Assembly (NCBI GenBank): GCA_045105635.1
Contig: JBGCDU010000015.1
Span: 8,695 to 72,694 of the forward strand
Source: Congregibacter sp.
GTDB lineage: Bacteria > Pseudomonadota > Gammaproteobacteria > Pseudomonadales > Halieaceae
Length of the DNA stretch: 64,000 nt
Reading direction: 5' to 3'
The notes below the pieces were generated by a model that was not told the origin of the DNA, ran no database searches, and worked only from the letters and a program-made list of their open reading frames with translations. The position numbers and the translations under genes are program-made. Shown here piece after piece: positions 43,578 to 57,233 of this stretch; the stretch's first letter is position 1; every line of letters starts with the position of its first letter.

Positions 43578-45060
43578 ATCCCACACAGCCGCCGACCTGC
43601 GCGGCCCTAAATTGCGCACGCGAGCACGCCCACGGCCTGCCCGCCTGATACTTGCTTCGGCGATTTCGGCCTGCTGCCTGATACTCACCGGATGTCCCAG
43701 TGCAAGTAACCCGACAACGCCGCAGATGCCGTCTCCTCCATCGTCACCTTCGTCGTCAAGCAGCTCTTCGTCGAGTAGCTCTTCGTCGAGCAGTTCGTCG
43801 AGTAGCAGCTCTTCCAGCAGTAGCTCATCATCCAGTTCATCAAGCAGCAGCTCACCCTCCAGCAGCAGCTCTACATCACCTGCGGGCGGGATGCCGGGTC
43901 CCAGCGGGCCGCAGTCACCCAGCAGCGCAAGCACCAGCGGGTCGGAGTCAGAGCAACAAAGCGGCAGTGAGTCAACGGCCAGCAGCGAACGCTCGGGCAG
44001 TCCGGATGGAGATCTGAGCCCCGAAAATGGGGAAGGCCCCGATATGGGAGAGTTCCCGCAGGGTGAAGCCCCGGGAGCGACTGAGGTCGCCGACGCTGGG
44101 GACGCAAGCGCTGACGGTGCGAGTGAAGGCTCCGACGGCAGTGAGGGCGACGCGGCGGGCAACGGCGGCGAAACTGAGGCCACCGTCGGTGCGTCGGGCA
44201 GCGACGGAGCGGGCGATAGCGCCGGCGGAGAGCCCGGCTTTGAAGATAGCTCCGGCAGCGGCGACGCGCTGCCCTCAATGGAAGACGAGCAAAGCGTCGC
44301 GAGTAGCGGCGCGGGTCAGAACAACGGTGATAGTGCGGGTGCTAGTGCAGGTGATAGTGCAGGTGATAGCGCGGGCAATGCCGCCGAATCTGGTGCAGAA
44401 GGTTCAGGAAGCGCCGGCCAAGGCAGCAGCGCGGGTGGTGCGGACGGCGGTGGTATCAGCACCAGCGTGAGCGTGCCTGGCCTCCCGGGCGCGATTGGTC
44501 TGCCGGGAATTCCAGGCATCCCCGGTCTTCCAGGCCTGCCTGGTGAAGCAGGTACTCAAGCTGGAACCAACGATCCAGGCGGTCAACCAAACGGCGGCTA
44601 CGGTGGGTTCCCAGGTGATGACGGCCCCATGACGCCCGGTGAACAGGTAGCAATTCTCGACGCGGAACTTGAACGCGGTATGGGCGACTTTGACGTCATG
44701 ATTCTCGAAGAGCAAGCCGCACAGCGTCGCGCAGCGCGCGAGGCCGCAGCGACAGAACCGGTGCAAACCGCATCAGCGGGCAGCGTGGCCAACGGCTCTG
44801 CCGAAGGCGAGTTCGGCCGTGAAATGGGTGGCGGCAGCGGTGGCGGCTATGGTGCGGGCGGCGGCGGGGGCGGAACCGGTGTGCGCGACATGCCCAAGGA
44901 CACCGCAAAATTTGAACCACCTGACGATATACCCAACGGTAACGATGATGACGTGGTAGCGAGACAGCTGCGCGAAGCGGCCATGCGTGAAACAGATCCC
45001 GCCGTGCGCGAGAAGCTTTGGGTTGAATACCGTAAGTACAAGGGCATCAAACAACCGTGA
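43558..45060 (+). CDS. Ser/Gly/acidic low-complexity lipoprotein with a collagen-like segment and a small helical C-terminal domain
   Basis: Lipobox LILTGC, poly-Ser tract, (GDSA)n, GLPGAIGLPGIPGIPGLPGLPGE, C-terminal DDDVVARQLREAA...LWVEYRKYK. Overlaps both neighbours. Confidence 0.75.
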   Translation: MTRQYGKSHTAADLRGPKLRTRARPRPARLILASAISACCLILTGCPSASNPTTPQMPSPPSSPSSSSSSSSSSSSSSSSSSSSSSSSSSSSSSSSSSSPSSSSSTSPAGGMPGPSGPQSPSSASTSGSESEQQSGSESTASSERSGSPDGDLSPENGEGPDMGEFPQGEAPGATEVADAGDASADGASEGSDGSEGDAAGNGGETEATVGASGSDGAGDSAGGEPGFEDSSGSGDALPSMEDEQSVASSGAGQNNGDSAGASAGDSAGDSAGNAAESGAEGSGSAGQGSSAGGADGGGISTSVSVPGLPGAIGLPGIPGIPGLPGLPGEAGTQAGTNDPGGQPNGGYGGFPGDDGPMTPGEQVAILDAELERGMGDFDVMILEEQAAQRRAAREAAATEPVQTASAGSVANGSAEGEFGREMGGGSGGGYGAGGGGGGTGVRDMPKDTAKFEPPDDIPNGNDDDVVARQLREAAMRETDPAVREKLWVEYRKYKGIKQP

Positions 45061-46283
45061 TTGCTTTTTTGCGAACCCGTATGCGCAGTTCCGCGCTGCC
45101 GATACTTTTGCTCGCTGCAGGAATCGGTCTCAGCGGCTGTGTCAGCAAAACTGTCAAAAGTACGAAAGTATCCGCACTGATACCACCGGCGACGGCGGTG
45201 CCAGAAAACGAGTTACTTGACGTGGCAATCGCCATCTTCGATCCCGGTCTGGACCTGGCGGACGAGGACGAGCGCATCTATCCGGAAGTACGCCGGGCCG
45301 AGGCGCGATACATACCCAATGTACTCGCTGACGTTCTGGAGGACTCCGGGGCCTGGGGCGCTGTGCGCGTTGTACCTGACGAGGAGCGCATATCCGACCT
45401 GATGGTCACCGGTACCATCGTGCATTCGGACGGCGAGTCGCTGGAGTTAAAAATTATCGCGAGAGACTCCCGAGATTACGTGTGGCTTGACAAAGCCTAC
45501 GAGGGAAACGCCAGCCGCTACGCCTACGACGCCAAAACGCGCTCGCAGTACGACGCATTCCAGGGCGTGTACCATCAGATTGCCAACGACCTCGTGCGCA
45601 AGTTTGATCTGCTCGACAGCGCCCAACGCAAGGATATTCGCACGGTCTCTGAGCTACTGTTTGCCAAGAGCTTCTCGACAGATGCCTTCGACGGCTATCT
45701 CGACAAGACGCGCAAAGGCAAACGACTGGTTGTGAGACTCCCCGCAGATGGCGACCCCATGCTCGAGCGCGTGCGCAAGCTGCGTGAGCGCGATCATGTG
45801 TTCGTAGATACCTTGCAGGCGTATTACAGCGGGTTTTCGGAGGATATGTATGGCCCCTATCAGGAGTGGCGCAAACTCAGCTATCAGGAAGTGGTCGCTT
45901 ACCAGGAGCTCAAAGCGGAGAGCCGCCGTCAGCTGATCGCAGGCGGCGCGGCGATTCTTGCAGGCATCGCGGCCGCCGGTAGTAGTGACGGAAGCGCCAG
46001 AACAGCCGGTAACGTTGCCATCATCGGCGGTGGATATTTACTCAAAAGCGGTCTCGAAAGTCGCGCCGAGGCACAGATTCACGTCGAGGCACTGGAAGAA
46101 ATAGGCCAATCGCTGGAGGCTGAAATTACGCCTCAGGTTATTGAATTAGAGGATCGCACAGTAATGATTAGCGGCACGGTTGAAGACCAGTACGCGCAAT
46201 GGCGCGAAGTGCTTGCCGAGATTTATCGCAATGAGATTGGTGAACTGGTACCGCCAGCACCCGACGCCACGCTCGAAAACTAG
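45057..46283 (+). CDS. Lipoprotein, putative CsgG/TolB-N-like domain plus Gly/Ala-rich hydrophobic hairpin
   Basis: Lipobox GLSGC; alpha/beta N-domain; IAGGAAILAGIAAAG...AGNVAIIGGGYLL. Confidence 0.65.
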   Translation: MIAFLRTRMRSSALPILLLAAGIGLSGCVSKTVKSTKVSALIPPATAVPENELLDVAIAIFDPGLDLADEDERIYPEVRRAEARYIPNVLADVLEDSGAWGAVRVVPDEERISDLMVTGTIVHSDGESLELKIIARDSRDYVWLDKAYEGNASRYAYDAKTRSQYDAFQGVYHQIANDLVRKFDLLDSAQRKDIRTVSELLFAKSFSTDAFDGYLDKTRKGKRLVVRLPADGDPMLERVRKLRERDHVFVDTLQAYYSGFSEDMYGPYQEWRKLSYQEVVAYQELKAESRRQLIAGGAAILAGIAAAGSSDGSARTAGNVAIIGGGYLLKSGLESRAEAQIHVEALEEIGQSLEAEITPQVIELEDRTVMISGTVEDQYAQWREVLAEIYRNEIGELVPPAPDATLEN

Positions 46284-47815
46284 TGTCAGACGAATACCAG
46301 CGGGTAGAACCCACGCCTTTTGACGCGCCGTCTACGGCCGCGCCAAGCGCGCCCGTTGCCGTGGCGGCAGCGCGTCCAGGCTGGCTGGTCCCTGCGCTGG
46401 CAGTTCTGGCGCTGCTGGGAGTATTTGTGGTGTTCCTACTACCGGGATGGGTATCGGATAGGCCGCCCGCCGTCCCGCAACAGTCACAATCGCAGGCCAC
46501 GGCTAACGACGCGGTCAGCAAGCAGCCTCGCAACGATCCGCAATCAAACAGCGACAGCGCGCTCGCCTCCCCCTTCGCCGACGCAGTGGCTGCAAAAGCC
46601 CGTGCAGAAGCACAAGAACTTCTGGCGGAGCTACTGGATATCCAGCAAAACCTCACCGAGCGCGGCGCAGAGTCCTGGGCAGCTGAGATTATGACCGCGA
46701 TCGCCGCCGAAGCCCTGGCAGGCGATGAGCGCTATAAAGAACGCGCATTTGATACCGCCATCGGCCACTACGAAACGGCGCTCGCTGATGCGATTGCTCT
46801 CGAGCAATCTATCCCGGAACGATTTAAGCAGCAGACAGAGTCCGCCAGAAGCGCGATTGAGGCTCTCGATCTCGACACGGCCTTGGCGGCGTACGAGCTT
46901 GCGCAGGCACTAGAACCTGGTGACCCGGCGCTGGGGATTTTGCAGCAAAGGCTCGACGAACTGCCTGCGGTAGTCACTGCGCTGGATAATGCGTCACTGG
47001 CAGAAACAGACAGGGATTTGGATACCGCCGTCGCCGAGCTGCGCAAAGCCGCCGGGCTGGACCCCTTACATCAGCGCGTCCAGAGTGAGTTTGCGCGGCT
47101 TGAGACGGCGCTCAATGAGCAGCGTTTTAATTCAGCCATGTCAGAAGGTTACGCCGCCCTGGACGAGGGCAAATACGAGCGTGCTCAACAGCGCTTTGCG
47201 AGCGCCGCCAAACTGCAACCCGGCTCGGCAGAAGCCGCGGCGGCCCAGCAGGAACTCGCCGTGGCGCGCACCGCTGCGACACTCAACAGACTTCAGAAGC
47301 GCGGCGAAGATTCGCTGGAAAGCGAGGAGTGGGCGGCGGCTATCAAGGCATTCGAAGAAGCGGCTGCAATTGACTCCAGTCTGCGCTTTGCGCGCGAGGG
47401 CCTCGCGTTTGCGCGGCCTCGCGCCTCGCTGGATAAACGTCTCCAGGCCATTCTGGATGAACCACAGCGCCTCGTGGACGACGCCATCTTGCGCGAAGCG
47501 CGCGATACGCTGCAAAAAACCCGAGCGCTCGATAAGCTGGGGCCAAGCCTGACTGACAAAGCCGACGCCGTCGCCAAAACCCTGGCCATCGCCAGTACGC
47601 CGCTCGGCGTGCAGATTCAGTCCGATGGGCTGACAGAAGTTACCGTTTACAAAGTCGCCAGGCTCGGCGCGATCACCGAACGGCAGCTGACGCTGCGTCC
47701 CGGTAAATATACAGCGGTAGGCACCCGGCGAGGATACCGCGACGTGCGCGTTGAGTTTGAGGTCTCCCCGAATGACCGCACACCGATCTATATCGCCTGC
47801 AACGAGAGCATTTAA
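46283..47815 (+). CDS. Bitopic membrane protein with periplasmic helical (TPR-like) repeats and a C-terminal PEGA-like domain
   Basis: TM WLVPALAVLALLGVFVVFLL; Ala/Glu-rich helices; VQIQSDGLTEVTVYKV...LTLRPGKYTAVGTRRGYRD. Confidence 0.7.
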   Translation: MSDEYQRVEPTPFDAPSTAAPSAPVAVAAARPGWLVPALAVLALLGVFVVFLLPGWVSDRPPAVPQQSQSQATANDAVSKQPRNDPQSNSDSALASPFADAVAAKARAEAQELLAELLDIQQNLTERGAESWAAEIMTAIAAEALAGDERYKERAFDTAIGHYETALADAIALEQSIPERFKQQTESARSAIEALDLDTALAAYELAQALEPGDPALGILQQRLDELPAVVTALDNASLAETDRDLDTAVAELRKAAGLDPLHQRVQSEFARLETALNEQRFNSAMSEGYAALDEGKYERAQQRFASAAKLQPGSAEAAAAQQELAVARTAATLNRLQKRGEDSLESEEWAAAIKAFEEAAAIDSSLRFAREGLAFARPRASLDKRLQAILDEPQRLVDDAILREARDTLQKTRALDKLGPSLTDKADAVAKTLAIASTPLGVQIQSDGLTEVTVYKVARLGAITERQLTLRPGKYTAVGTRRGYRDVRVEFEVSPNDRTPIYIACNESI

Positions 47816-49875
47816 TGAGCGAGAACGCCCGCGAGGCCATCAAAGCGGCCGTTTTTGAGCCGCTCGACCCAGCAGCGGTAGAGAAGAAAGCCCGCATACC
47901 CCTCTCGCGAATGCTGCTGATTGGCCTCGTCACGATATTCCTGGTCGTGCTCTGGTTTCTGCTGACATCTCGGTCGCTACAGATCAGCGTAGTAGCCGAA
48001 GAGGAAGCGACCGTTGGTCTATCGGGCTTGGTGCTGCCACTGGGGGGGCGCTATCTTCTGCGCCCAGGCAGTTACGAGCTGCGAGTTGACGCTCGGGGAT
48101 ACCACCCCTACCTCAGCGAGCTGACGGTGGGCAGCGATGCCAGTCAGCGTGAAGAGGTTATTCTTCAACCTTTGCCCGGACGCCTGACCGTCGAAAGCAC
48201 GCCATCCGGGGCCTACGTACTGATCGACGGAGAAATGCGGGGACAGACACCGCTGACCGATCTACCGGTAGAGTTCGGCGAGCACACCCTCAAGCTGCAG
48301 GCTGTCCGATATATTGACCTTGAGCAGGGCCTGACAGTGACCGGCCGTGAAGTACAGCAGCGCTTGTCGCTGCAACTGGCACCCGCCTGGGCCGATATCG
48401 ATGTGAGCAGCACCCCACCCGGGGCCACCGTGCTTATCGATGACGAACCCCTGGGAATCACGCCAGGCGTAATAGAAGTACTGCAGGGAGAGCGTACCCT
48501 CGTTCTGCAGTTGCCGGGCTTTGCGCAGATTAGCAAGACCTTGAACGTTGAAGCCGGGATAGCACAGCGCCTCGACCCGTTCGAACTCATTCCCGCCACT
48601 GGCGTTTTACAGTTGAGCAGCGCGCCCAGCGGGGCAAATGTCAGTGTCAACGGTGAATTTGCCGGACAGACGCCATTAGAATTAGAACTCCCACCCGATA
48701 CAGATCATCGGATCAGCGTGTCCAAGGCCGGGTATCGCCGGGCCAGCGACACATTGAACATGGCGGCAGGCGGCACCGCGACACGTCAGCTTACCCTGCG
48801 CCCGCTCCTGGGTGATGTGCTGGTGCGGGTGCAACCGGCCGAGGCGGAGCTTTTCGTGAACGGCAGGTCCATGGGGCGAGGGAGCCAGACCTTGCCGCTG
48901 CCGGCGGTGTTGCAACGTATTGAATTTCGCCTGGAAGGCTACGAAACCATTACCCGAAGCGTTACGCCCAGGCCAGGGCTGGAACAGCTGCTGGAAGTCA
49001 CGTTAATGACCCCGCAAGCAGCACGCAAAGCACGCCTGACACCCACAATGAACACTGCTCTCGGCCAGCAGATGTTGCTCATGAACCCCATGGATGCGGA
49101 GAAAAACGAATTCTCTATGGGTGCGTCACGCAGGGACCCGGGACGCCGAGCCAATGAAGTGCTGCATCCCGTACGCCTGGAGCGTCCCTTCTACCTACAG
49201 GCACAGGAAGTCACCAACGCGCAGTTCCGACTGTACGAAAGTTCACACAACTCCGGCCAGATCGAAGGCAACAGCCTGAACCGCGAGCAGCAACCCGTCG
49301 CCGGGATTAGCTGGCAGCAGGCAGCGTCCTACTGCAACTGGCTGAGCCGCCGGGAAGGACTCACGCCTTTTTACCTCGAGCAACAGGGCATCATCATCGG
49401 TTTCACGCCCGAGTCCCTCGGTTATCGACTGCCGACTGAGGCGGAATGGGCCTGGGTAGCCAGAGTCGAGGAAGATACACTCAAACGATTTAGCTGGGGC
49501 GAGGATTTTCCGCCCAAATCTGTGGTCGAAAACGTAGCGGACAACAGTTCCGCTTACGTTACCGGGCGGGTTTTGAACGGCTATGACGATGGCTATGTCG
49601 TCAGCGCTCCCACGGGAAGTTTCACTGCCAACTCGCGCGGTATTTTTGATATAGGAGGCAATGTGTCGGAGTGGATTCATGATGTCTACGTTATCCCCGC
49701 TTCCAGCGGCGTTGTGCAGACAGACCCGCTTGGTGGTCAACGCGGAGACAACTACGTCATCCGCGGCGCCAGCTGGGCTCTGGGACGGCTACCCGAGCTG
49801 CGCCTTTCCTACCGCGATTATGGGCAGGCAGGTCGGGATGACGTAGGATTCAGGATTGCTCGCTATGCGGAGTAA
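47815..49875 (+). CDS. Membrane-anchored protein with multiple PEGA domains and an FGE-sulfatase (SUMF1-fold) domain
   Basis: TM; repeated VESTPSGAYVLIDG / VSSTPPGATVLIDD / LSSAPSGANVSVNG; FSMG, EVTNAQF, PVAGISWQQAASYCNWLS, RLPTEAEW, DIGGNVSEW, IRGASW. Confidence 0.88.
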   Translation: MSENAREAIKAAVFEPLDPAAVEKKARIPLSRMLLIGLVTIFLVVLWFLLTSRSLQISVVAEEEATVGLSGLVLPLGGRYLLRPGSYELRVDARGYHPYLSELTVGSDASQREEVILQPLPGRLTVESTPSGAYVLIDGEMRGQTPLTDLPVEFGEHTLKLQAVRYIDLEQGLTVTGREVQQRLSLQLAPAWADIDVSSTPPGATVLIDDEPLGITPGVIEVLQGERTLVLQLPGFAQISKTLNVEAGIAQRLDPFELIPATGVLQLSSAPSGANVSVNGEFAGQTPLELELPPDTDHRISVSKAGYRRASDTLNMAAGGTATRQLTLRPLLGDVLVRVQPAEAELFVNGRSMGRGSQTLPLPAVLQRIEFRLEGYETITRSVTPRPGLEQLLEVTLMTPQAARKARLTPTMNTALGQQMLLMNPMDAEKNEFSMGASRRDPGRRANEVLHPVRLERPFYLQAQEVTNAQFRLYESSHNSGQIEGNSLNREQQPVAGISWQQAASYCNWLSRREGLTPFYLEQQGIIIGFTPESLGYRLPTEAEWAWVARVEEDTLKRFSWGEDFPPKSVVENVADNSSAYVTGRVLNGYDDGYVVSAPTGSFTANSRGIFDIGGNVSEWIHDVYVIPASSGVVQTDPLGGQRGDNYVIRGASWALGRLPELRLSYRDYGQAGRDDVGFRIARYAE

Positions 49876-50140
49876 GCTCGTGCTCTACCGTTTCAGATTT
49901 CCACTGGCACTCGCGACGCTGTTGGCGCTTGCGCTGCTAATCGTTTTTCTGCCCGTCGCTGCGCCGGCGCTAGCGCAGTCAGCTGCTGAGCCTAACGATC
50001 CGACTGCGACCGCGGCCATTGAGAACGAAGCGCCGATGGAGGCAGATATCGACAGCGCCGCTGATCCCGCAAGCGAAGATTACGAAGCCTCAGAACAGAT
50101 TTCTGAAGATTTATCCGTGTCGTTTCCTATCGATATTTAA
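49865..50140 (+). CDS. Small exported or anchored acidic protein ending in SFPIDI
   Basis: Hydrophobic N-segment and acidic linker; fills the gap between two operon genes with overlap or 8-bp spacing. Confidence 0.6.
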   Translation: MRSKLVLYRFRFPLALATLLALALLIVFLPVAAPALAQSAAEPNDPTATAAIENEAPMEADIDSAADPASEDYEASEQISEDLSVSFPIDI

Positions 50141-50148
50141 GGAAGTCC

Positions 50149-50949
50149 ATGAAGAAAGGCATCTCCTCGGAGTTTATGTTCCAGCTGTTCGCCCTGCTCA
50201 CGGCGGTGATTCTGGTTCACGCCATGTACGTAGCCGTGATCAGACCCAGTGCTGATACGCAGTTGGAGATAGAGAGAACTGCGCAGGCAGCGGGAGAAGA
50301 CGTCGTACCAAAGCGCAGTCTCGCCGTGGTAATCCGCGATTTTGAGCAGGAGGCCTGCTTCATCCTGCTTATCTGGGCGCTGTCGATTATGGGCTTCAAG
50401 GGTCGACACAATCTGCAGGAGCAAAAACTACTGGAAGAGGAACTCCTATCGATTCCGGAGGGGACCAGCGTACTGCCCGAGGATGCCCGGCAATACAGTC
50501 GTTCCATGGAGGCGTTGCCCGCTGAGCAGCAGGCGCTGCTCTTACCGCGGGCATTGATGTCAGCGCTGCAGCGCTTCGCGACGACCAGCAGCATCCCCGC
50601 GGTCTCCGATACAATTCGCGAGCAATGCGATGTCGAGTCCGACCGTCTCGACTCGGAGCTATCCATGGTGCGCTACATCGCCTGGGCGATCCCGTCGATC
50701 GGGTTTATCGGCACCGTGCGCGGCATCGGCGACGCACTGGGTCAGGCCTACAAGGCGGTGGAGGGCGATATCTCAGGCGTTACGGTCAGCCTCGGCGTGG
50801 CGTTCAACAGCACCTTCGTAGCTTTGATCCTCTCGATCGTCATTATGTTCTGTTTGCACCAATTGCAGCTGTCGCAAGAGCGTCTGGTCCTCAACTGCCA
50901 GCGCTACGCCGATAACCGTCTGATGCGCTTTCTCGTAGCCGAAAACTGA
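50149..50949 (+). CDS. MotA/TolQ/ExbB proton-channel family protein
   Basis: Four hydrophobic segments; AWAIPSIGFIGTVRGI and GVTVSLGVAFNSTFVAL match the ExbB/TolQ PxxGxxGTVxG...IxxALxxT signature. Confidence 0.92.
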   Translation: MKKGISSEFMFQLFALLTAVILVHAMYVAVIRPSADTQLEIERTAQAAGEDVVPKRSLAVVIRDFEQEACFILLIWALSIMGFKGRHNLQEQKLLEEELLSIPEGTSVLPEDARQYSRSMEALPAEQQALLLPRALMSALQRFATTSSIPAVSDTIREQCDVESDRLDSELSMVRYIAWAIPSIGFIGTVRGIGDALGQAYKAVEGDISGVTVSLGVAFNSTFVALILSIVIMFCLHQLQLSQERLVLNCQRYADNRLMRFLVAEN

Positions 50950-50963
50950 GAGGCTCGAACATC

Positions 50964-52280
50964 ATGCCAATACTTGATTGTCGGGATACCCGCATCTGCC
51001 TGTGGCAGGACAGCGGCGCGACGCACAGTCCGGGATTCGTATTACTAGACGGGCAGGAGTACCAATTTGGACAGGCCGCGCGCGAACAGTCTCGTGTGCG
51101 ACCGCGCGACAGCAGCAGTCGCTTTTGGTGGCAACTCAGTACGCAGCCCCTGAAGCCAGGTCTGGGCACAGCGCGACATACGGCGGATCTGGTGCACGCG
51201 CATCTACGCTATGTACTGGAGGCTGCAGGCGGCCCTGAGCAACTGGCCCTGGCCGTGCCGGACAGCATGCCTCGGGAACAGCTCTCGCTGCTTCTGGGGA
51301 TTGCGCAGGCATGCGAGGTCACAGTGGCGGGTCTGGTGAGTCGCAGCGCACTCATGGGTAGTAACTCTCCCCTGCTGGCCTCATCAACGCGCTTTCTGCA
51401 TCTCGAGGCGCAGCTCAACCAGACGATAGTGAATGAGCTGGTCGTAGATGGCGACCGGATAAGTCTCGCGCGCAGCACGCCGCTGCCGGCCTGCGGACTC
51501 CTGGCTCTGCAGGAGCGCTGCGTGAGCGCCATCGCCAGCGCGTTTGTGCAGCAGACTCGATTCGACCCGCGACGCAGCGCGTCCAGCGAGCAGCTGTTGT
51601 ACAACCAACTCCCAGGCATTCTGTCTACGCTCGAAGAGCGCGGCGAAGTCAGTGTGGATATTGATGGCCATCGTTGCCGGGTAAATTCCGCGGCTTTCGC
51701 CAACGTCAGTGAAAAACTCTTGGCCGGCGTCGCGCAAGCGCGCGCCGCCGACGAACTGCCTCTGCTCATCGACCCAGAGCTGCAACAGCTGCCAGGAATG
51801 AGTGCCCTGACCGGTATGGTCGCCACTCTGGACGAAGATGCGCTGTGGCACGCCTGGGAGAAGCAGCATGCTCATGTGCAGGATGTCGGCAAAGACAATC
51901 ATCTGATCGATCGCCTACCGACGCTGCATCACAATGGATCGGCTGCGATCGTAAGCAACGGGAACGACGCCGCACGACAACCGGCAATGCGGTCACCAGC
52001 GGCGGCGGTTGACGCATCGAAACAAGCTGGCCAGCAAGCGCGGCAACACGCATCTGCCACTCACATCCTCATTCATACGCAGGCGCTGCCATTGCGCGGC
52101 GAAGAGATTATCCTCGGTGAAGGTTTTTGCCTTCGCGCCAGTAATGGGCATTGGACCTTGCACGGCGACGGTGGGCTTATCAACGGATTGCCGAGCACCT
52201 CGCAACAGCCCCTGCACTTGGGCGACACTCTGTCTCTTGGAACGGCTGGGCACGGACGCCTGATCGAAGTTCTGGACTAG
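50964..52280 (+). CDS. Cytoplasmic degenerate Hsp70/actin-fold protein with a C-terminal FHA-like domain
   Basis: ILDCRDT; SPGFVLL..YQFGQAAREQSRVRP; LAVPDSM..EQL..L..IAQAC; FDPRRSASSEQLL follow the Hsp70 NBD layout. C-terminal LINGLP...PLHLGDTLSLG. Confidence 0.6.
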   Translation: MPILDCRDTRICLWQDSGATHSPGFVLLDGQEYQFGQAAREQSRVRPRDSSSRFWWQLSTQPLKPGLGTARHTADLVHAHLRYVLEAAGGPEQLALAVPDSMPREQLSLLLGIAQACEVTVAGLVSRSALMGSNSPLLASSTRFLHLEAQLNQTIVNELVVDGDRISLARSTPLPACGLLALQERCVSAIASAFVQQTRFDPRRSASSEQLLYNQLPGILSTLEERGEVSVDIDGHRCRVNSAAFANVSEKLLAGVAQARAADELPLLIDPELQQLPGMSALTGMVATLDEDALWHAWEKQHAHVQDVGKDNHLIDRLPTLHHNGSAAIVSNGNDAARQPAMRSPAAAVDASKQAGQQARQHASATHILIHTQALPLRGEEIILGEGFCLRASNGHWTLHGDGGLINGLPSTSQQPLHLGDTLSLGTAGHGRLIEVLD

Positions 52281-52292
52281 GGAAACGCTGGC

Positions 52293-53387
52293 GTGGCAAG
52301 ACGCAATAAACGCAGTTTCACAACGTTCAACCTGTCGTTTCTGGACATTATGTCCTGCGGCTTTGGCGCGGTGATCCTTGTCTACCTGATTATCGACCAC
52401 GCGATCATTGTCGAGTCCGAGGAACTGAACGTGGACTTGCTCTCGGAGGTCAATCTTCTTGAGGAGGATATCCGGGACGGCCAGGAGAACATGGTAGCCC
52501 TGCGTAACACGCTGGATGAGGTAGATCTCGAAATCGTGACCACCGAGGGTCGCGCGACACGGATCATCGATGAGGTCCAGGAGTACGAAGCCTTAATCGC
52601 CTCACTCATCCCCGAAGATGTCAGCGAGGAAGAATCGGTCGAGAAACTTAAGGCCGAGGTACAGTCGCTGGAAGAGGAAGTAAAAAAACTGCGCGAAGCG
52701 GCTGAAGAAGAGAGCGGCAAAAGCGCGCGCACCTTTGTCGGTGACGGCAATCGCCAATACCTCACGGGCCTCAATCTGGGTGGGCGCAATATTGCGATCA
52801 TGCTGGACGTCTCGGCGAGCATGCTCGCCGACAAACTGGTAAACGTCATCAGGCTGCGCAATATGGATGAGGATCTGCAGCGCAGTGCAGAAAAGTGGAC
52901 CCGGGCGCTGAAAACAGTAGACTGGCTGACCGCACAATTGCCGGTGGGGAGCGAGTATCAGGTGATTACCTTCAACACGCAGGCGCAATCCGCATTGCCC
53001 GAGACCGATGGCAAATGGCTGGAAGTAGCGAACCAGGCACAGCTCGAGGAGTTGTCCGAGGCGCTGCTGGAGATTACGCCCGCAGGCGGAACCAGTCTGG
53101 AAAATGCGTTCACGTACCTGCAAAAACTCTCACCTGTGCCGGACAATATCTTTTTGATTACCGACGGACTCCCTACACAGGGGGCAAGCACGCCACGCGG
53201 CACCACCATCAGCGGCAACGCGCGTCAGCGTCTCTACCGGCAGGCGGTGCGCCAGCTGCCCGCCAACGTTCCGGTGAACATTATTCTGGGCCCGATGGAG
53301 GGCGACCCCCTCGCCGCCTCCGAGTTTTGGCGCCTGGCACAAAATACGCGCGGGTCGTTTATGAGTCCCTCCAGTGACTGGCCATAG
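52293..53387 (+). CDS. ExbD/TolR-like TM + coiled coil + VWA domain protein (subunit 1)
   Basis: NLSFLDIMSCGFGAVILVYLII TM with Asp; acidic coiled coil; MIDAS DVSASM, GGTS, LITDG. Confidence 0.85.
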   Translation: MARRNKRSFTTFNLSFLDIMSCGFGAVILVYLIIDHAIIVESEELNVDLLSEVNLLEEDIRDGQENMVALRNTLDEVDLEIVTTEGRATRIIDEVQEYEALIASLIPEDVSEEESVEKLKAEVQSLEEEVKKLREAAEEESGKSARTFVGDGNRQYLTGLNLGGRNIAIMLDVSASMLADKLVNVIRLRNMDEDLQRSAEKWTRALKTVDWLTAQLPVGSEYQVITFNTQAQSALPETDGKWLEVANQAQLEELSEALLEITPAGGTSLENAFTYLQKLSPVPDNIFLITDGLPTQGASTPRGTTISGNARQRLYRQAVRQLPANVPVNIILGPMEGDPLAASEFWRLAQNTRGSFMSPSSDWP

Positions 53388-53398
53388 GACATTGATCA

Positions 53399-54397
53399 AT
53401 GCCTAGAAAACGTCGCGAAATGGCCGAGTTCTCTCTCTCCTTCCTGGATGTGATTTGCTGCGGTTTTGGTGCGGTAATCCTGCTTCTGATGATTACCAAA
53501 ACCGTACAGCCGCAGATCATTGAGGCATCTACGGTCAACCTCGAGGGACTCGTTGCGGATCTCCAGGAACAGGTTTTTGAGATTCGCGGTGAGACGCGAT
53601 TCCTTAACCGTGACTTGAACGCACGCAAGGAACAGCTGTCTGAGTATAAGGACCGAATTGCCATACTACGCGGCCAACTGGCCGCTGCGCGCTCGAGCTA
53701 CGACAGCCTGCAGGTAGAGACGAACACCAACTCTGTGGTCACCGAGCAATTGGCCATCGCACAGCAATCGCTGACACTGGAGATGCAGCGCCTGCTGGAA
53801 GATATAGAAGTAAGCAATAATTTGATCGGGGGGATACCCGTTGACAGCGAATACATCATTTTCGTGATCGACACGTCCGGATCGATGTTTTCCTACGCCT
53901 GGGATCGCGTGCTGCAGGAACTGGAAGCGATTTTGAACATCTATCCGAACGTGAAGGGCATCCAGATCATGAACGATATGGGCAACTATATGTTCAGTCG
54001 CTATCGCGGACAGTGGATACCCGACACCGATGGACGACGGCGCATCATCATGCAGAACCTGCGCAACTGGAACGTATTCAGCAACTCATCGCCGGTCGAG
54101 GGCATCACCGCCGCGATTCGCTCGTTTTATGATCCAGACAAAAAGATTAGTATCTATGTATTCGGAGACGACTTTACCGGCAATTCCATCGCCCAGGTCG
54201 TCAACACCGTCGACCAGATTAATCGCGAAGCCAGTGATGGCGAGCGTCGGGTTCGCATCCACGCCGTGGGCTTTCCAGTACTATTTCGTCAGGCCGCGAA
54301 CAGACAAGGTAGCGTGATTCGCTTCTCTGCACTGATGCGCGAACTGACCTATCGCAACGGAGGGACTTTTGTCGGACTCAATGACTTCAGACCCTGA
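53399..54397 (+). CDS. ExbD/TolR-like TM + coiled coil + VWA domain protein (subunit 2)
   Basis: SLSFLDVICCGFGAVILLLMIT TM with Asp; coiled coil; MIDAS IDTSGSM, VFGDD. Confidence 0.85.
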   Translation: MPRKRREMAEFSLSFLDVICCGFGAVILLLMITKTVQPQIIEASTVNLEGLVADLQEQVFEIRGETRFLNRDLNARKEQLSEYKDRIAILRGQLAAARSSYDSLQVETNTNSVVTEQLAIAQQSLTLEMQRLLEDIEVSNNLIGGIPVDSEYIIFVIDTSGSMFSYAWDRVLQELEAILNIYPNVKGIQIMNDMGNYMFSRYRGQWIPDTDGRRRIIMQNLRNWNVFSNSSPVEGITAAIRSFYDPDKKISIYVFGDDFTGNSIAQVVNTVDQINREASDGERRVRIHAVGFPVLFRQAANRQGSVIRFSALMRELTYRNGGTFVGLNDFRP

Positions 54398-55100
54398 CTA
54401 CATTGGCGACGCTCACTCCGGTGATAGCCTAGAACTCAGCCATGGCAGCGCGCGCGCCGCCCGAGCGCAACTATATTGGCCGCTGCTACTTATGTTGGCG
54501 CTAGTCGCAGGCTGTGGCACAAAGGAAGTCGTCGTGGTCGGTAACTTTCCGCCGCCGCTAATGCAGCAGCTACCGGTGTCGCTCGGCGTCTGGTATGAAC
54601 CGGAGTTCAGCGGTCACGAGTTTTTTGATGAGGCCAAAGGCCGCGCAGATTCGTCCTGGATAGTAAAAACCGGCGAGGCGCAGGTACAGATGTGGGACCA
54701 GTTGCTGGACGGCATGTTCACACGCGTGCAGCCCATGGACGGCAAGCCGGCGCCGGAACAGATGAACCCGGCAGTGGACGCGGTGCTCATACCCCGAGTA
54801 GACGAACTGCAATATGCTATTCCCGCGCATACCAACGTCAAGGTCGACGAAATCTGGATGCGCTACGCTTTTGAATTGGTCACCACCAACGGCGATGTTA
54901 TAGCCGAATGGACCATGACGGCCTACGGCAAAACGCCCACCGCATTTCTGCAAAGCGACGAGGCTGCGGTCAATCTCGCCGCCGTGGTCGCGCTTCGCGA
55001 CGCGGGCGCACACTTTATCACCAGTTTTCACAACGTTCCGGAGGTTGCCCAGTGGCTGGAAGACCTGCAACAAGATCAACCCACCGCGGCTGCGCTCTAG
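54381..55100 (+). CDS. Lipoprotein of unknown function
   Basis: Lipobox LVAGC; alpha/beta body. Start is uncertain. Confidence 0.7.
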   Translation: MTSDPDYIGDAHSGDSLELSHGSARAARAQLYWPLLLMLALVAGCGTKEVVVVGNFPPPLMQQLPVSLGVWYEPEFSGHEFFDEAKGRADSSWIVKTGEAQVQMWDQLLDGMFTRVQPMDGKPAPEQMNPAVDAVLIPRVDELQYAIPAHTNVKVDEIWMRYAFELVTTNGDVIAEWTMTAYGKTPTAFLQSDEAAVNLAAVVALRDAGAHFITSFHNVPEVAQWLEDLQQDQPTAAAL

Positions 55101-55126: not shown

Positions 55127-55795
55127 ATGAGTACCATGCGGCACTTACGCTGGTGCCTGGCGGTGCTTCCGCTGGCGCTCACCGGCTGCGTAACATCGAC
55201 CGTCGATGAGATGGTTTTCAATGCGCCTACCGAGGGCATTGGCGATGCTACCGTGGTTATCCTCGGGCGCCGGCATGCCAGCGACTACGAAACCGAATTC
55301 GATTTCATCGAGTGCATCGCAGACCATGTAGTGGCGCGCGACGGCAGCATTGAGATCATTGATGAAATCGAGTTCATTAACGCGCTGTACCCCTGGTTTG
55401 AGCCGCGCACCGCACCGTTACGACCCGTAGACATCGATCGCCTGATGCAAATAGAGCCGGTAGCCGAAGAACTCGCGAACCTGAGGCTCGAATACATGAT
55501 CTGGATCGATGGCAGCACTGTACGCACCAACTCTGCGGGCTCAATGACCTGTGGCGTAGGGCCCGGCGGCGCGGGTTGCTTTGGATTTGGCACCTGGGGT
55601 GATGCCTCGGATTACGAAGCGACAATATGGGACTTCACTGATCAGGCTGAGGTTGGCCGCCTGAACACCTCGACAAGCGGGCAATCCTACATGCCTGCGG
55701 TGATCATACCGATTCCAATTATCGCGCCAGTGCAGGGCACGGCCTGCGACGGCATGGGCGATCAACTGCTGGAGTTCCTGTCCAGTGAACACTAA
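55127..55795 (+). CDS. Lipoprotein of unknown function
   Basis: RBS aaagga, ATG 55127, lipobox ALTGC, Cys pair in TCGVGPGGAGC. Confidence 0.7.
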   Translation: MSTMRHLRWCLAVLPLALTGCVTSTVDEMVFNAPTEGIGDATVVILGRRHASDYETEFDFIECIADHVVARDGSIEIIDEIEFINALYPWFEPRTAPLRPVDIDRLMQIEPVAEELANLRLEYMIWIDGSTVRTNSAGSMTCGVGPGGAGCFGFGTWGDASDYEATIWDFTDQAEVGRLNTSTSGQSYMPAVIIPIPIIAPVQGTACDGMGDQLLEFLSSEH

Positions 55796-57233
55796 AGCAC
55801 TGAGCGCAGTAGCGAGCACGCTACTGCTGGCAAGCGTCGCCGGCGGCCTGACTTCCTGTGCGATTAATCCAGCCACAGGCACGCCCGCGATCGTTCTCTC
55901 CAGCGCTTCCGGGGAACGCAAAGTGGGCCAGGAGATGCATGACAAAATGATCGCCGACGGGGCTGCCTACGACGATCCGGAACTGCAGGAGTATGTCAAC
56001 AAAATCGGCCAGCGGCTGGTAAAGCAAAGCGATATGCCTGATCTCAAGTTCACCTTCACGGTGATCGATGAGCCCGAAATAAACGCCTTCGCCACGCCCG
56101 GTGGATTTGTTTACGTGAATCGCGGGCTGATTGCCTACCTGAATAACGAGGCCGAACTCGCGGGTGTCATCGGGCACGAGATTGCGCACGTGACGGCGCG
56201 CCACCATGGAAGACGCAAAAGCGCTAGTGCCACCAGCAAAGTACTCGCCACCACAGCCTATGTGTTCACCGGCAGCAGCGCGATTTATGAAGCCTCGAGC
56301 ATGTATGGCGCGGAGCTGATCAGCGGCTACGGCCGTGATATGGAGCTGGAAGCCGACGGCTTAGGTGCAGAGTATATGTACAAGGCCGGCTATGAACCGG
56401 AGGCGCTGCTCGATGTCATTGGCGTGCTCAAAAATCAGGAACAGTTCATGCGTCTCAAGGCGCGTGCCGCCGGAAAAAGCGGTGGCACTTACCACGGCTT
56501 GTACGCGACGCACCCGCGCAACGACAAACGCCTTAAGACGGTTATTCGTGCCGCGAATGAGCTGGACGATGGCAGCTATATCGAAAGCCCGGAAATACCC
56601 GGCGAATTCAGGCGAGCGACCGATGGGCTAGTGTGGGGCGAGAGCGTTGAGGGCCAGCGTGCAGATGATCGTTACTATCACAATAAATTGGGCTTCACCT
56701 TTGAGCAGCCCGAGGGCTGGGCCGTCACCTCCTCTGCCCAAGCCGTTGTTGCAACGGCACCGGACGGCAGTGCCCAGCTCACGATCAAACTTCGTCGCAA
56801 GGATCCTACGACAACGCCTCAAGCGGTCCTGGAGACTTCGGCCAGCGGTACGCTGAGCGCCGCCGACCAGCTGCAACAAAGTGGCGTGGATGGATACACG
56901 GCAGTGGCAAGCGCCGGCAGCACCAGCAAACGCCTAGCGGTGATAGACCTGAATAACCTCACTTACCTCCTCGAAGGCGAAGCTGGCGACTTTCCCGCAA
57001 ATGATCCGCAACTGCTGGAGATGATCCAGAGTTTTCGTGCGATGCATCCCAAGGAAAAGAGCTCCAACAATGGACGCTACGTGCGCTATATCCAAGTGCC
57101 GCGAGGCGCCGACGTATCGACACTGGCCAATAGCGTGCGCATCAGTGATGCGGAGGAGCAGCTGCGTCTGATCAACGATTTCTATCCGCGAGGCGAGCCG
57201 CGAACCGGCGACTGGATCAAAACCATTCAGTAA
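55785..57233 (+). CDS. M48 zinc metalloprotease lipoprotein (BepA/YfgC-like) with a C-terminal extension
   Basis: Lipobox LTSC; INAFATPGG, HEIAH, ELEADGLG, THP. Confidence 0.88.
   Translation: MNTKALSAVASTLLLASVAGGLTSCAINPATGTPAIVLSSASGERKVGQEMHDKMIADGAAYDDPELQEYVNKIGQRLVKQSDMPDLKFTFTVIDEPEINAFATPGGFVYVNRGLIAYLNNEAELAGVIGHEIAHVTARHHGRRKSASATSKVLATTAYVFTGSSAIYEASSMYGAELISGYGRDMELEADGLGAEYMYKAGYEPEALLDVIGVLKNQEQFMRLKARAAGKSGGTYHGLYATHPRNDKRLKTVIRAANELDDGSYIESPEIPGEFRRATDGLVWGESVEGQRADDRYYHNKLGFTFEQPEGWAVTSSAQAVVATAPDGSAQLTIKLRRKDPTTTPQAVLETSASGTLSAADQLQQSGVDGYTAVASAGSTSKRLAVIDLNNLTYLLEGEAGDFPANDPQLLEMIQSFRAMHPKEKSSNNGRYVRYIQVPRGADVSTLANSVRISDAEEQLRLINDFYPRGEPRTGDWIKTIQ

What the first reader, a model, noticed from the sequence alone, without database searches (positions are those of the whole stretch)
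52293..54397. Paralogous stator B-subunits whose periplasmic domain is an integrin-like VWA/MIDAS
Seen: both genes begin with near-identical LSFLD[IV]xxCGFGAVIL membrane helices carrying an Asp in the position of the essential ExbD/TolR/MotB proton-accepting Asp. An ~100-aa coiled coil follows, then a VWA domain with DxSxS. Established: MotB/ZorB end in peptidoglycan-binding OmpA domains and ExbD/TolR in small alpha/beta domains, while MIDAS VWA domains bind acidic ligands in a cation- and force-dependent way. Inference: a heterodimeric (B1/B2) rotor shaft that grips a partner through metal-dependent adhesion, a distinct class of 5:2 motor.
Basis: partly seen in the sequence, partly recalled or inferred. 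Interest (0 to 1): 0.8.

Follow-up and report, generated by a model that had tools for sequence, protein, structure and literature searches.

The report
vWA-headed axle pair of proton motor
Two neighbouring genes encode membrane proteins that most likely form the central pair of a proton-driven TolQ/MotA-type membrane motor and carry metal-binding adhesion (vWA) heads on long stalks into the periplasm. A 2025 paper already predicted this design by computer, and nobody has tested it.

Summary
B1 (52293-53387) and B2 (53399-54397) are full-length paralogues (profile-profile E 2.7e-29). Each has an N-terminal membrane helix with an invariant Asp, a stalk of about 100 residues with heptad periodicity, and a C-terminal vWA fold with conserved MIDAS residues.

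- The Asp is present in every homologue that includes the helix (102/102 B1 representatives, 30/30 B2).
- All 56 B1-bearing genomes among 602 sampled carry the same orphan TolQ/ExbB-like gene next to the pair.

In this genome the six other MotA/TolQ/ExbB genes each have a canonical TolR/ExbD/MotB partner. Only this one lacks one.

Mol Biol Evol 2025 (PMC12204202) proposed these "TPH-vWA" pairs beside tolQ-like genes, seeded on Idiomarina loihiensis. That species' protein AAV83014.1 is an orthologue of B2.

Beyond that paper's text, the motor sits in a conserved envelope operon in two forms. The core has two secreted or lipid-anchored proteins, a TPR-like protein, a PEGA/GldK-like protein, the motor gene, B1 and B2. 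Stoichiometry, rotation, ligand and function remain untested.

The parts
52293..53387 (+). B1: membrane helix with Asp18 (codon 52344-52346; helix about 52326-52397), heptad stalk (residues 38-137, about 52404-52703), disordered linker (137-165), vWA head (166-364, about 52788-53384) with MIDAS DVSAS at 52806-52820
   Evidence: ORF; Pfam VWA_2 at 31.7 bits; AF2 model with pLDDT 88; Foldseek matches to vWA domains; conservation; heptad periodicity
53399..54397 (+). B2: paralogue of B1. Membrane helix with Asp17 (codon 53447-53449), stalk (residues 41-134, about 53519-53800), divergent vWA head (about 150-330, 53846-54388) with MIDAS DTSGS at 53870-53884, an invariant Ser230 in place of the MIDAS Thr, and Asp257
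50149..50949 (+). g07: three-helix TolQ/ExbB-like proton-channel protein, the presumed pentameric partner. It keeps both pore threonines (GTV in helix 2, NST in helix 3).
   Evidence: Pfam MotA_ExbB E 3.6e-14; NCBIfam TolQ/ExbB weak hits; alignment with this genome's TolQ/ExbB/MotA; strict adjacency to B1/B2
50964..52280 (+). g08: 438-aa protein with no family match and no evident signal peptide or membrane segment, so presumably cytoplasmic. It lies between the motor gene and B1 in the long (type I) operon form, though not in every type I locus, and is absent from type II.
47815..49875 (+). g05: membrane-anchored protein with four PEGA repeats and an FGE-sulfatase-fold domain that resembles GldK/PorK. 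Part of the conserved core.
   Evidence: Pfam PEGA E 5.8e-52 and FGE-sulfatase E 1.3e-34; NCBIfam GldK partial hit E 2.3e-24, below cut-off; synteny
46283..47815 (+). g04: membrane-anchored helical, TPR-like protein. Part of the conserved core.
   Evidence: weak TPR hits; synteny
45057..46283 (+). g03: lipoprotein (lipobox LSGC) with no family match. Part of the conserved core.
   Evidence: sequence; synteny in all 19 distant loci
43516..45060 (+). g02: lipoprotein (lipobox LTGC) with a poly-Ser and acidic low-complexity region and a conserved C-terminal motif of about 40 aa (...EKLWVEYRKYKG). That motif is 58-63% identical in Mariprofundus.
42195..43577 (+). g01: secreted protein with a weak TonB_C-like C-terminus. 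tblastn matches beside type I loci L116, L154 and, on the opposite strand, L109.
   Evidence: Pfam TonB_C at 19.9 bits, below cut-off
49856..50140 (+). g06: small secreted acidic protein, matched in only one other locus examined (L116, same family)
54369..55100 (+). g11: lipoprotein (lipobox VAGC), type I only
55127..55795 (+). g12: lipoprotein (lipobox LTGC), type I only
55785..57233 (+). g13: M48 metallopeptidase lipoprotein (HEIAH motif), type I only
   Evidence: Pfam Peptidase_M48 E 2.1e-37

Best explanation
B1 and B2 are the two non-identical inner ('B', axle) subunits of a proton-driven motor of the MotAB/ExbBD/TolQR type. The outer ring is the TolQ/ExbB-like protein g07, encoded just upstream.

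Proposed mechanism:
- The N-terminal helices of B1 and B2 sit side by side in the pore of a g07 pentamer.
- Asp18 (B1) and Asp17 (B2) take up and release protons against the ring of g07 threonines.
- Beyond the membrane the two chains continue as a parallel heterodimeric coiled coil of about 100 residues, roughly 15 nm.
- The coiled coil carries two different vWA/MIDAS heads across the periplasm.
- The heads bind, through a metal ion, an acidic residue of a partner. The partner is most likely one of the envelope proteins of the same operon: the secreted or lipid-anchored g02/g03 proteins, or the PEGA/GldK-like g05.
- Ion flow is thereby converted into torque or pull on an outer-envelope assembly.

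Shown here: domain anatomy, conservation, paralogy, strict gene linkage, and the absence of any other B-type partner.
Inferred: the 5:1:1 complex, proton coupling, heterodimerisation, metal-dependent binding, the ligand and the cellular function.
For: 1. The helix Asp is invariant: 102/102 B1 representatives that include the helix, 93/93 in alignment A1, 30/30 B2, and visible in every B2 orthologue listed from the related loci.
2. Linkage in the phylum sample of 401 genomes: B1 occurs in 19 and a g07-type gene in 20. These are the same 19 plus one copy cut off in a fragmented assembly. The two genes are adjacent wherever they lie on the same contig.
3. Linkage in Alteromonadaceae: 37/37 further B1-bearing genomes have the g07-type gene on the same contig and strand, with matching copy numbers in all but one fragmented assembly.
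4. This genome has 7 MotA_ExbB genes and 4 ExbD genes. Each of the six other MotA_ExbB-family genes is followed by, or clustered with, a TolR, ExbD or MotB gene carrying the helix Asp. Only g07 has none, and B1/B2 stand in that place.
5. g07 keeps both pore threonines of TolQ/ExbB in 20/20 orthologues.
6. B1 and B2 form two clades with 100/100 support and mirrored internal topology. Every locus keeps one of each.
7. The stalks show heptad periodicity. Their lengths match closely within each operon type: type II has 135-138 residues in B1 and 133-137 in B2.
8. Both heads have the vWA fold with conserved MIDAS residues.
9. The basic residues before the helix (MARRNKR, MPRKRRE) fit an N-terminus-in topology, as in ExbD/TolR/MotB.
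10. AlphaFold 3 models published for the Idiomarina orthologues place the paired Asp residues inside the threonine ring (PMC12204202, section 8, read).
Against: - There is no significant sequence homology between the B1/B2 helix and ExbD/TolR (hhalign P 0.054, probability 1%), and no Pfam ExbD, MotB_plug or OmpA hit.
- The helix carries a CGFGA glycine motif that canonical B subunits lack.
- No multimer model could be run here, and no experimental data exist.
- B2's head is divergent: below the Pfam threshold, with Ser in place of the MIDAS Thr.
- The stalk-length agreement is essentially two clusters (type I and type II), so it is weak evidence for heterodimerisation.
- The ligand is unknown.
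Confidence: 0.65

Rival explanations
1. B1/B2 are peripheral force transducers of the TolA/TonB kind. They would dock on the outside of the g07 pentamer, while the pore is empty or is filled by a TolR/ExbD protein encoded elsewhere.
For: PMC12204202 describes a separate family of vWA proteins with this TolA-like topology. This genome has four ExbD/TolR genes elsewhere.
Against: - B1/B2 lack the SHLS/His motif of TolA/TonB helices and instead carry an invariant Asp.
- Each ExbD/TolR gene in this genome already sits beside its own ExbB/TolQ gene.
- Mariprofundus, Idiomarina and the other genomes sampled keep g07-B1-B2 contiguous with no ExbD-like gene detected among the conserved operon genes.
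Confidence: 0.08
2. g07, B1 and B2 form a complex, but it is not a rotary or force-generating motor. It would be a proton-gated scaffold or sensor that holds vWA heads at a fixed height in the periplasm to organise the operon's lipoproteins.
For: - B1/B2 have no peptidoglycan-binding or plug element.
- The TolQ/ExbB helix-3 Glu is replaced by an aliphatic residue in g07.
- No dynamic data exist.
Against: The Asp and both threonines, which are the proton-relay residues of every characterised motor of this kind, are under strict conservation across Gamma- and Zetaproteobacteria. A passive scaffold would not need this.
Confidence: 0.12
3. B1/B2 are ordinary membrane-anchored vWA proteins, as in the BatA/BatB aerotolerance operons. 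They would merely neighbour a TolQ-like gene, and the helix Asp would be incidental.
For: BatB (3ibs) is among the Foldseek matches of the B1 head. Databases name these proteins only 'VWA domain-containing protein'.
Against: - Linkage to g07 held in 56/56 genomes.
- The Asp is invariant in both paralogue clades.
- No Pfam BatA hit was found.
- Heptad stalks of fixed length are present.
Confidence: 0.03
4. The cluster is a Zorya-like anti-phage defence system built on a MotAB-like module.
For: Zorya uses a ZorAB 5:2 motor. g07 gives a faint ZorA hit (E 0.038).
Against: - No PADLOC model matches above noise. The only hits to B1 and B2 are coiled-coil matches to LmuB-type models.
- No nuclease or helicase effectors are present.
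- The partners are envelope lipoproteins, a PEGA/FGE-fold protein and an M48 peptidase.
- The cluster keeps its gene order across whole families such as Halieaceae and Mariprofundaceae.
Confidence: 0.02

Closest known systems
'TPH-vWA' proteins beside tolQ-like genes (Mol Biol Evol 2025;42:msaf138, PMC12204202, section 8 and Fig. 4c-d; in-silico description seeded on Idiomarina loihiensis)
   Same: - Membrane-tethered vWA proteins occurring in heterologous pairs.
- They lie directly beside a tolQ-like gene with no tolR/exbD.
- A conserved Asp sits in a 'transpore helix', and there is no SHLS motif.
- I. loihiensis AAV83014.1 is a B2 orthologue: 32% identity to the window's B2 over the full length, E 2e-55. 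It is 93% identical to the B2 of the I. aminovorans locus with the g03-g04-g05-g07-B1-B2 order.
   Different: - The window carries the long operon form (type I). It has an extra gene (g08) between the motor gene and B1, plus two lipoproteins and an M48 peptidase downstream.
- The paper's text mentions only the tolQ-like neighbour. It does not mention the conserved PEGA/FGE-fold and lipoprotein genes, the MIDAS conservation or the coiled-coil stalk.
ExbD / TolR / MotB (B subunits of ExbB5D2, TolQ5R2 and MotA5B2 motors)
   Same: - A single N-terminal helix with N-terminus-in topology and an essential-type Asp near its cytoplasmic end.
- The gene lies immediately downstream of the MotA/TolQ/ExbB-family gene.
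- Two copies per motor.
   Different: - No detectable sequence homology.
- The periplasmic part is a 100-residue coiled coil plus a vWA head, instead of a small alpha/beta domain or a plug plus OmpA-like peptidoglycan binder.
- The two copies are obligately different.
Motors encoded with two different B subunits: AglR-AglQ/AglS of Myxococcus gliding, and ExbB-ExbD1-ExbD2 clusters (one such cluster is on contig C9 of this genome)
   Same: One A-type gene is accompanied by two paralogous B-type genes, which implies a mixed B pair.
   Different: Those B proteins are ordinary TolR/ExbD family members without stalks or vWA heads.
GldLM / PorLM motor with the GldK/PorK ring of type IX secretion (gldK-gldL-gldM-gldN gene order)
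   Same: - An FGE-sulfatase-fold protein is encoded just upstream of a motor ring gene.
- That gene is followed by genes for single-helix proteins with long periplasmic extensions that reach an outer-membrane-associated assembly.
   Different: - g07 is a TolQ/ExbB family member, not GldL.
- B1/B2 are unrelated to GldM/PorM.
- g05 is anchored by a membrane helix and PEGA repeats rather than a lipid, and scores far below the GldK cut-off (86 bits against 350).
- The resemblance is one of layout only.
Integrin I-domains and bacterial vWA adhesins (CglB of Myxococcus, BatB)
   Same: vWA fold with the DxSxS...T/S...D MIDAS motif.
   Different: Here the vWA head is fused to a motor-type membrane helix through a coiled coil. 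Ligand and metal dependence are unknown.

Membership tests
TPH-vWA pairs (PMC12204202) | Membrane-tethered protein with a C-terminal vWA domain | tested here: met
   AF2 models plus Foldseek for B1 and B2; Pfam VWA_2 for B1
TPH-vWA pairs (PMC12204202) | Adjacent tolQ-like gene with no tolR/exbD/motB gene in the cluster | tested here: met
   g07 matches Pfam MotA_ExbB. No ExbD hit on the window's contig. Adjacency held in 56/56 genomes.
TPH-vWA pairs (PMC12204202) | Conserved Asp in the helix, and no SHLS/His motif | tested here: met
   D18 in 93/93 and D17 in 30/30. The helices read LSFLDIMSCGFGAVILVYLII and LSFLDVICCGFGAVILLLMI, without His.
TPH-vWA pairs (PMC12204202) | Occurs as a heterologous pair | tested here: met
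   B2 lies directly downstream of B1 in all 88 loci that held a B2 match, including all 19 distant loci. The tree has two clades at 100/100.
TPH-vWA pairs (PMC12204202) | Homology to the Idiomarina loihiensis exemplar | tested here: met
   AAV83014.1 (P0412) against the window's B2: 32% identity, E 2e-55, full length. The I. aminovorans locus L151 has the same gene order.
ExbD/TolR (Pfam PF02472) and MotB (plug plus OmpA-like) | Sequence match to the family model, including its periplasmic domain | tested here: not met
   No ExbD, MotB_plug or OmpA hit at E <= 0.1. hhalign of the N-terminus against this genome's ExbD/TolR gave P 0.054, probability 1%.
B subunit of a 5:2 ion-driven motor (functional class) | N-terminus-in single helix with an Asp near the cytoplasmic end, encoded next to the A-subunit gene | tested here: met
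B subunit of a 5:2 ion-driven motor (functional class) | Two B helices inside an A5 pore; ion flux that depends on the Asp | not testable with these tools
   Only single-chain prediction was available. Published AF3 models of the Idiomarina orthologues show this arrangement.
MotA/TolQ/ExbB family (for g07) | Pfam MotA_ExbB above cut-off, and both pore threonines conserved | tested here: met
   53.1 bits against a cut-off of 22.9. The Thr of GTV and of NST aligns with the TolQ/ExbB threonines in 20/20 orthologues.
vWA domain with MIDAS | DxSxS plus a distal Thr and Asp | tested here: met
   B1: D172/S174/S176/T267/D291 at 94-100%, with T267 at 85% plus 6% Ser. B2: D158/S160/S162/S230/D257 at 100%, with Ser replacing Thr.
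vWA domain with MIDAS | Metal-ion-dependent ligand binding | not testable with these tools
   Requires biochemistry.
Zorya or other known defence systems | Match to PADLOC models of the system's proteins | tested here: not met
   Only coiled-coil noise, plus a ZorA hit at E 0.038.

The most novel reading that the evidence does not exclude
The g07-B1-B2 motor is the engine of an undescribed trans-envelope machine that does not use TonB or TolA.
- Its conserved core has seven genes: g02 (a secreted or lipid-anchored protein), the g03 lipoprotein, the TPR-like g04, the PEGA/GldK-like g05, g07, B1 and B2.
- The machine comes in two anciently separated forms. The long form adds g08 next to the motor gene, two more lipoproteins and an M48 peptidase.
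- In this reading the heterodimeric coiled coil presents two different MIDAS heads. These capture an acidic motif of an operon-encoded outer-envelope partner, for example the conserved C-terminal motif of g02.
- The layout would parallel PorK-PorL-PorM of type IX secretion, built from unrelated parts and serving a still unknown surface function.
Probability: 0.4. Interest if true: 0.75.

Novelty: new member of a known kind. Interest (0 to 1): 0.4.

Why it matters
Ion-driven 5:2 motors power flagella, TonB-dependent uptake, Tol-Pal, gliding/type IX secretion and Zorya defence. Each new output module shows another way in which membrane energy reaches the outer envelope. Here the B subunit itself becomes the long-range transducer: a coiled coil tipped with vWA/MIDAS heads. 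That removes the need for a TonB/TolA-like third protein.

The family is common in marine Gamma- and Zetaproteobacteria:
- about 1,400 clusters at 50% identity;
- 19 of 59 sampled Alteromonadaceae genera;
- all 80 fetched loci of Halieaceae-type genomes carry B1, and the pair was recovered from the 79 that reached far enough downstream.

It always sits in a conserved envelope operon, yet no phenotype, structure or ligand is known. The idea is already published as a prediction, so the value of this window lies in three things. It confirms the prediction independently, it defines the full conserved operon and its two forms, and it points to tractable hosts for a first experiment.

Tried and rejected
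- PADLOC scan of nine operon proteins gave only coiled-coil noise, so a defence reading was rejected.
- phmmer of B1 against PDB sequences hit only coiled-coil proteins. The B2 profile against PDB gave coiled-coil hits and a sub-threshold integrin alpha-M match at the MIDAS loop (E 0.1). Fold comparison was needed instead.
- hhalign of the B1/B2 N-termini against this genome's four ExbD/TolR proteins aligned Asp on Asp but was not significant. Homology of the helix therefore cannot be claimed.
- The single genome-contig scan returned only Halieaceae. The search for homologous proteins with a diverse B2 alignment again listed only Halieaceae. Diversity had to come from the genome search samples and the 50%-identity library.
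- Stalk-length co-variation between B1 and B2 gave r = 0.62, but this is really two clusters (type I and type II). Three values of 120 are regex artefacts. It is weak evidence only.
- I first read as showing that I. loihiensis AAV83014.1 was a start-truncated B1. Reading the sequence showed it is the B2 orthologue.
- Literature searches for experimental work on the operon, including Mariprofundus, PEGA/FGE and 2024-2026 motor papers, found none.
- The promoter/terminator scan found no convincing internal signals.
Full report
WHAT IS THERE

The finding's coordinates hold two tightly spaced plus-strand genes. B1 is at 52293-53387 (364 aa) and B2 at 53399-54397 (332 aa). They are 11 bases apart, and B1 starts 12 bases after the upstream gene. 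The window belongs to a Halieaceae (OM60/NOR5 group) gammaproteobacterium close to Congregibacter.

B1 begins MARRNKRSFTTFNLSFLDIMSCGFGAVILVYLII and B2 begins MPRKRREMAEFSLSFLDVICCGFGAVILLLMI.

The two proteins are paralogues along their whole length:
- BLASTP gives E 1e-10 at 23% identity.
- Family profiles give hhalign probability 99.8%, E 2.7e-29 over 311 columns. Helix aligns on helix, DxSxS on DxSxS, B1 Thr267 on B2 Ser230, and B1 Asp291 on B2 Asp257.

ANATOMY

AlphaFold2 on a 93-sequence alignment gives B1 a mean pLDDT of 88. The model has a short helix at 12-20, one continuous helix at 23-137, a disordered linker at 137-165, and an alpha/beta domain at 166-364 with pLDDT above 94. B2, from 30 sequences, has a mean pLDDT of 74, with 75-92 across the head. 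It shows the same plan: helix 15-34, helices 41-134, and a domain at about 150-330.

Both heads match solved vWA domains in Foldseek: CLCA1, ITIH1, VWF A3, ANTXR2, CaV alpha2-delta and the integrin alpha1 I-domain. Only B1 passes the Pfam vWA threshold, so B2's head is a diverged vWA.

The stalks have a strong 3.5-residue hydrophobic periodicity. This confirms the 'about 100-aa coiled coil', whose length works out at roughly 15 nm.

MIDAS residues are conserved in both families:
- B1: D172 87/93, S174 93/93, S176 89/93, T267 79/93 (plus 6 Ser), D291 93/93.
- B2: D158, S160, S162, S230 and D257, all 30/30.

(a) Asp conservation
- The 50%-identity library holds 1,414 relatives of B1 at E <= 1e-3.
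- Of 110 near-full-length representatives, 102 include the helix and all 102 have the Asp.
- Of the other eight, seven are gene calls that begin after the Asp, four of them at the Met of M[SF]CGFG. The eighth (P0174) has an unrelated N-terminus.
- In B2 the Asp is invariant in 30 orthologues spanning Halieaceae, Alteromonadaceae and Mariprofundaceae.

(b) Linkage to the MotA/ExbB-like gene
- g07 (50149-50949) is a Pfam MotA_ExbB member (E 3.6e-14) and is closest to TolQ/ExbB.
- In an even sample of 401 genomes of the phylum, B1 occurs in 19 and a g07-type gene in 20. These are the same 19 plus one genome whose g07-type copy is truncated in a fragmented assembly. The genes are adjacent wherever they lie on the same contig.
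- In 201 Alteromonadaceae genomes, 38 carry B1, covering 19 of 59 genera. The 37 newly sampled carriers all have the g07-type gene on the same contig and strand, with matching copy numbers in all but one fragmented assembly.
- Neither refutation condition is met.

WHY B1/B2 STAND IN FOR THE B SUBUNIT

This genome has seven MotA_ExbB-family genes and four ExbD-family genes. Reading the neighbourhoods shows the following partners:
- TolQ is followed by TolR (PYIDVML) and TolA.
- One ExbB is followed by ExbD (PLIDVVF).
- An ExbB pair is followed by two ExbD paralogues (PMLDVVF).
- Two MotA/PomA genes are followed by MotB genes (SYADFLT, TFADLMS).

Only g07 has no such partner, and its downstream genes are B1 and B2 with SFLDIM and SFLDVI. 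g07 keeps both pore-lining threonines of TolQ/ExbB in all 20 orthologues examined: the Thr of GTV in helix 2 and of NST in helix 3.

A maximum-likelihood tree of 20 B1 and 20 B2 sequences splits them into two clades with 100/100 support and mirrored internal branching. The duplication is therefore old and both copies are always kept, as expected for an obligate mixed pair.

The distance from helix Asp to MIDAS Asp is nearly fixed within each operon type:
- Type I: 148-155 residues in B1 and 141-144 in B2.
- Type II: 135-138 in B1 and 133-137 in B2.

THE LIMITS

The helix shows no significant profile similarity to ExbD/TolR (P 0.054), and no ExbD, MotB or OmpA domain is present. B1/B2 therefore work like a B subunit but are not members of those families. 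The 5:1:1 stoichiometry, rotation, heterodimerisation and metal-dependent binding remain inferences.

PRIOR ART

A full-text search found Mol Biol Evol 2025;42:msaf138 (PMC12204202). [quoted passage not shown]
- membrane-tethered vWA proteins that co-occur tightly with tolQ homologues without tolR/exbD;
- occurrence mostly as heterologous pairs;
- AlphaFold 3 models with the Asp pair inside the Thr ring;
- a family seeded on Idiomarina loihiensis.

I tested membership directly. I. loihiensis L2TR protein AAV83014.1 is 32% identical to the window's B2 over the full length (E 2e-55). It is also 93% identical to the B2 of an I. aminovorans locus that has the g03-g04-g05-g07-B1-B2 order. The window's pair is thus a member of that published, purely computational family. 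Searches for later experimental work found none.

Earlier agents of this scan reached the same conclusion on other genomes. I read those notes after finding the paper, and I do not count them as evidence.

WHAT THE SURROUNDINGS ADD

Across 19 distant loci the gene order g03 (lipoprotein) - g04 (TPR-like, membrane-anchored) - g05 (four PEGA repeats plus an FGE-sulfatase fold resembling GldK/PorK) - g07 - B1 - B2 is invariant. The loci come from an unnamed marine gammaproteobacterium and from genomes named through their protein records: Flocculibacter, Thalassomonas, Pseudoalteromonas xiamenensis, Idiomarina, Aliidiomarina and Mariprofundus.

A small secreted or lipid-anchored protein (g02) precedes g03. 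Its C-terminal motif is 58-63% identical between this window and Mariprofundus, and a related Cys-flanked version occurs in Alteromonadaceae.

Two operon forms exist:
- Type I, as in this window, adds g08 between g07 and B1, two lipoproteins (g11, g12) and an M48 peptidase lipoprotein (g13). One Alteromonadaceae locus (G422) has a type I-like B1 only about 140 bases from its motor gene, too close to hold g08. A secreted protein with a weak TonB_C-like end (g01) was matched beside three type I loci, in one of them on the opposite strand. The small secreted acidic protein g06 was matched in only one other locus.
- Type II is the bare core.
- Four sampled genomes carry two copies of the pair. In the one examined (G417) these are one type I and one type II cluster.

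None of the lipoproteins has Asp at position +2, which under the E. coli sorting rule suggests outer-membrane placement. This is an inference from the sequences.

The layout recalls gldK-gldL-gldM of type IX secretion: an FGE-fold protein, then a motor ring gene, then genes for single-helix proteins with long periplasmic reach. The parts are unrelated or score far below family cut-offs (GldK 86 bits against 350).

VERDICT

I rate it a new member of a known, computationally defined kind, in an operon whose full conserved composition and function are still undescribed.

I put about 0.65 on the B-subunit reading. I put about 0.4 on the wider reading that this is the engine of a new trans-envelope machine whose vWA heads grip an operon-encoded partner.

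Noticed in passing
window 47815-49875 together with 50149-54397: The gene order recalls gldK-gldL-gldM of type IX secretion: an FGE-sulfatase-fold (GldK/PorK-like) protein, then a motor ring gene, then two genes for single-helix proteins with long periplasmic reach. It is built from unrelated or very distant parts. g05 scores 86 bits against the GldK cut-off of 350.
   Followed up: partly
window 50964-52280; loci L109, L116, L153, L154, L156: A gene of about 440 aa with no family match and no signal peptide or membrane segment lies between the motor gene and B1 in the long operon form and is absent from the short form. One locus (G422) has a type I-like B1 only about 140 bases from the motor gene, so g08 is not strictly tied to type I.
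   Followed up: partly
window 43516-45060; L111 3493-4086; L114 3304-3924: The poly-Ser/acidic lipoprotein ends in a motif of about 40 aa (…EKLW.EYRKYKG). This motif is 58-63% identical between this gammaproteobacterium and Mariprofundus (Zetaproteobacteria), far above the rest of the protein. In Alteromonadaceae short-form loci the equivalent small secreted protein ends in a related Cys-flanked motif. It is a candidate ligand for the vWA heads.
   Followed up: partly
genomes G417, G513, G529, G539; loci L155 and L156: Four Alteromonadaceae genomes carry two copies of the B1-B2 pair with matching motor genes, on separate contigs or far apart on one contig. In G417, the one examined, they are one long-form and one short-form operon.
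   Followed up: partly
proteins P0122, P0157, P0193, P0210 and others: About 7% of database representatives of B1 lack the helix Asp only because the gene call begins after it, four of them at the internal Met of M[SF]CGFG. The family's key feature is therefore hidden in those records.
   Followed up: yes
own genome, contig C9 497370-500178: A Ton-type cluster holds a 474-aa ExbB-like protein, a short ExbB and two ExbD paralogues in a row. This is another case of two different B subunits beside one motor.
   Followed up: no
window 52341-52366 and 53444-53469: The helix-coding DNA of the two paralogues remains similar (CTGGACATTATGTCCTGCGGCTTTGG against CTGGATGTGATTTGCTGCGGTTTTGG), although the proteins are only 23% identical overall. 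This reflects very strong constraint on the helix.
   Followed up: no
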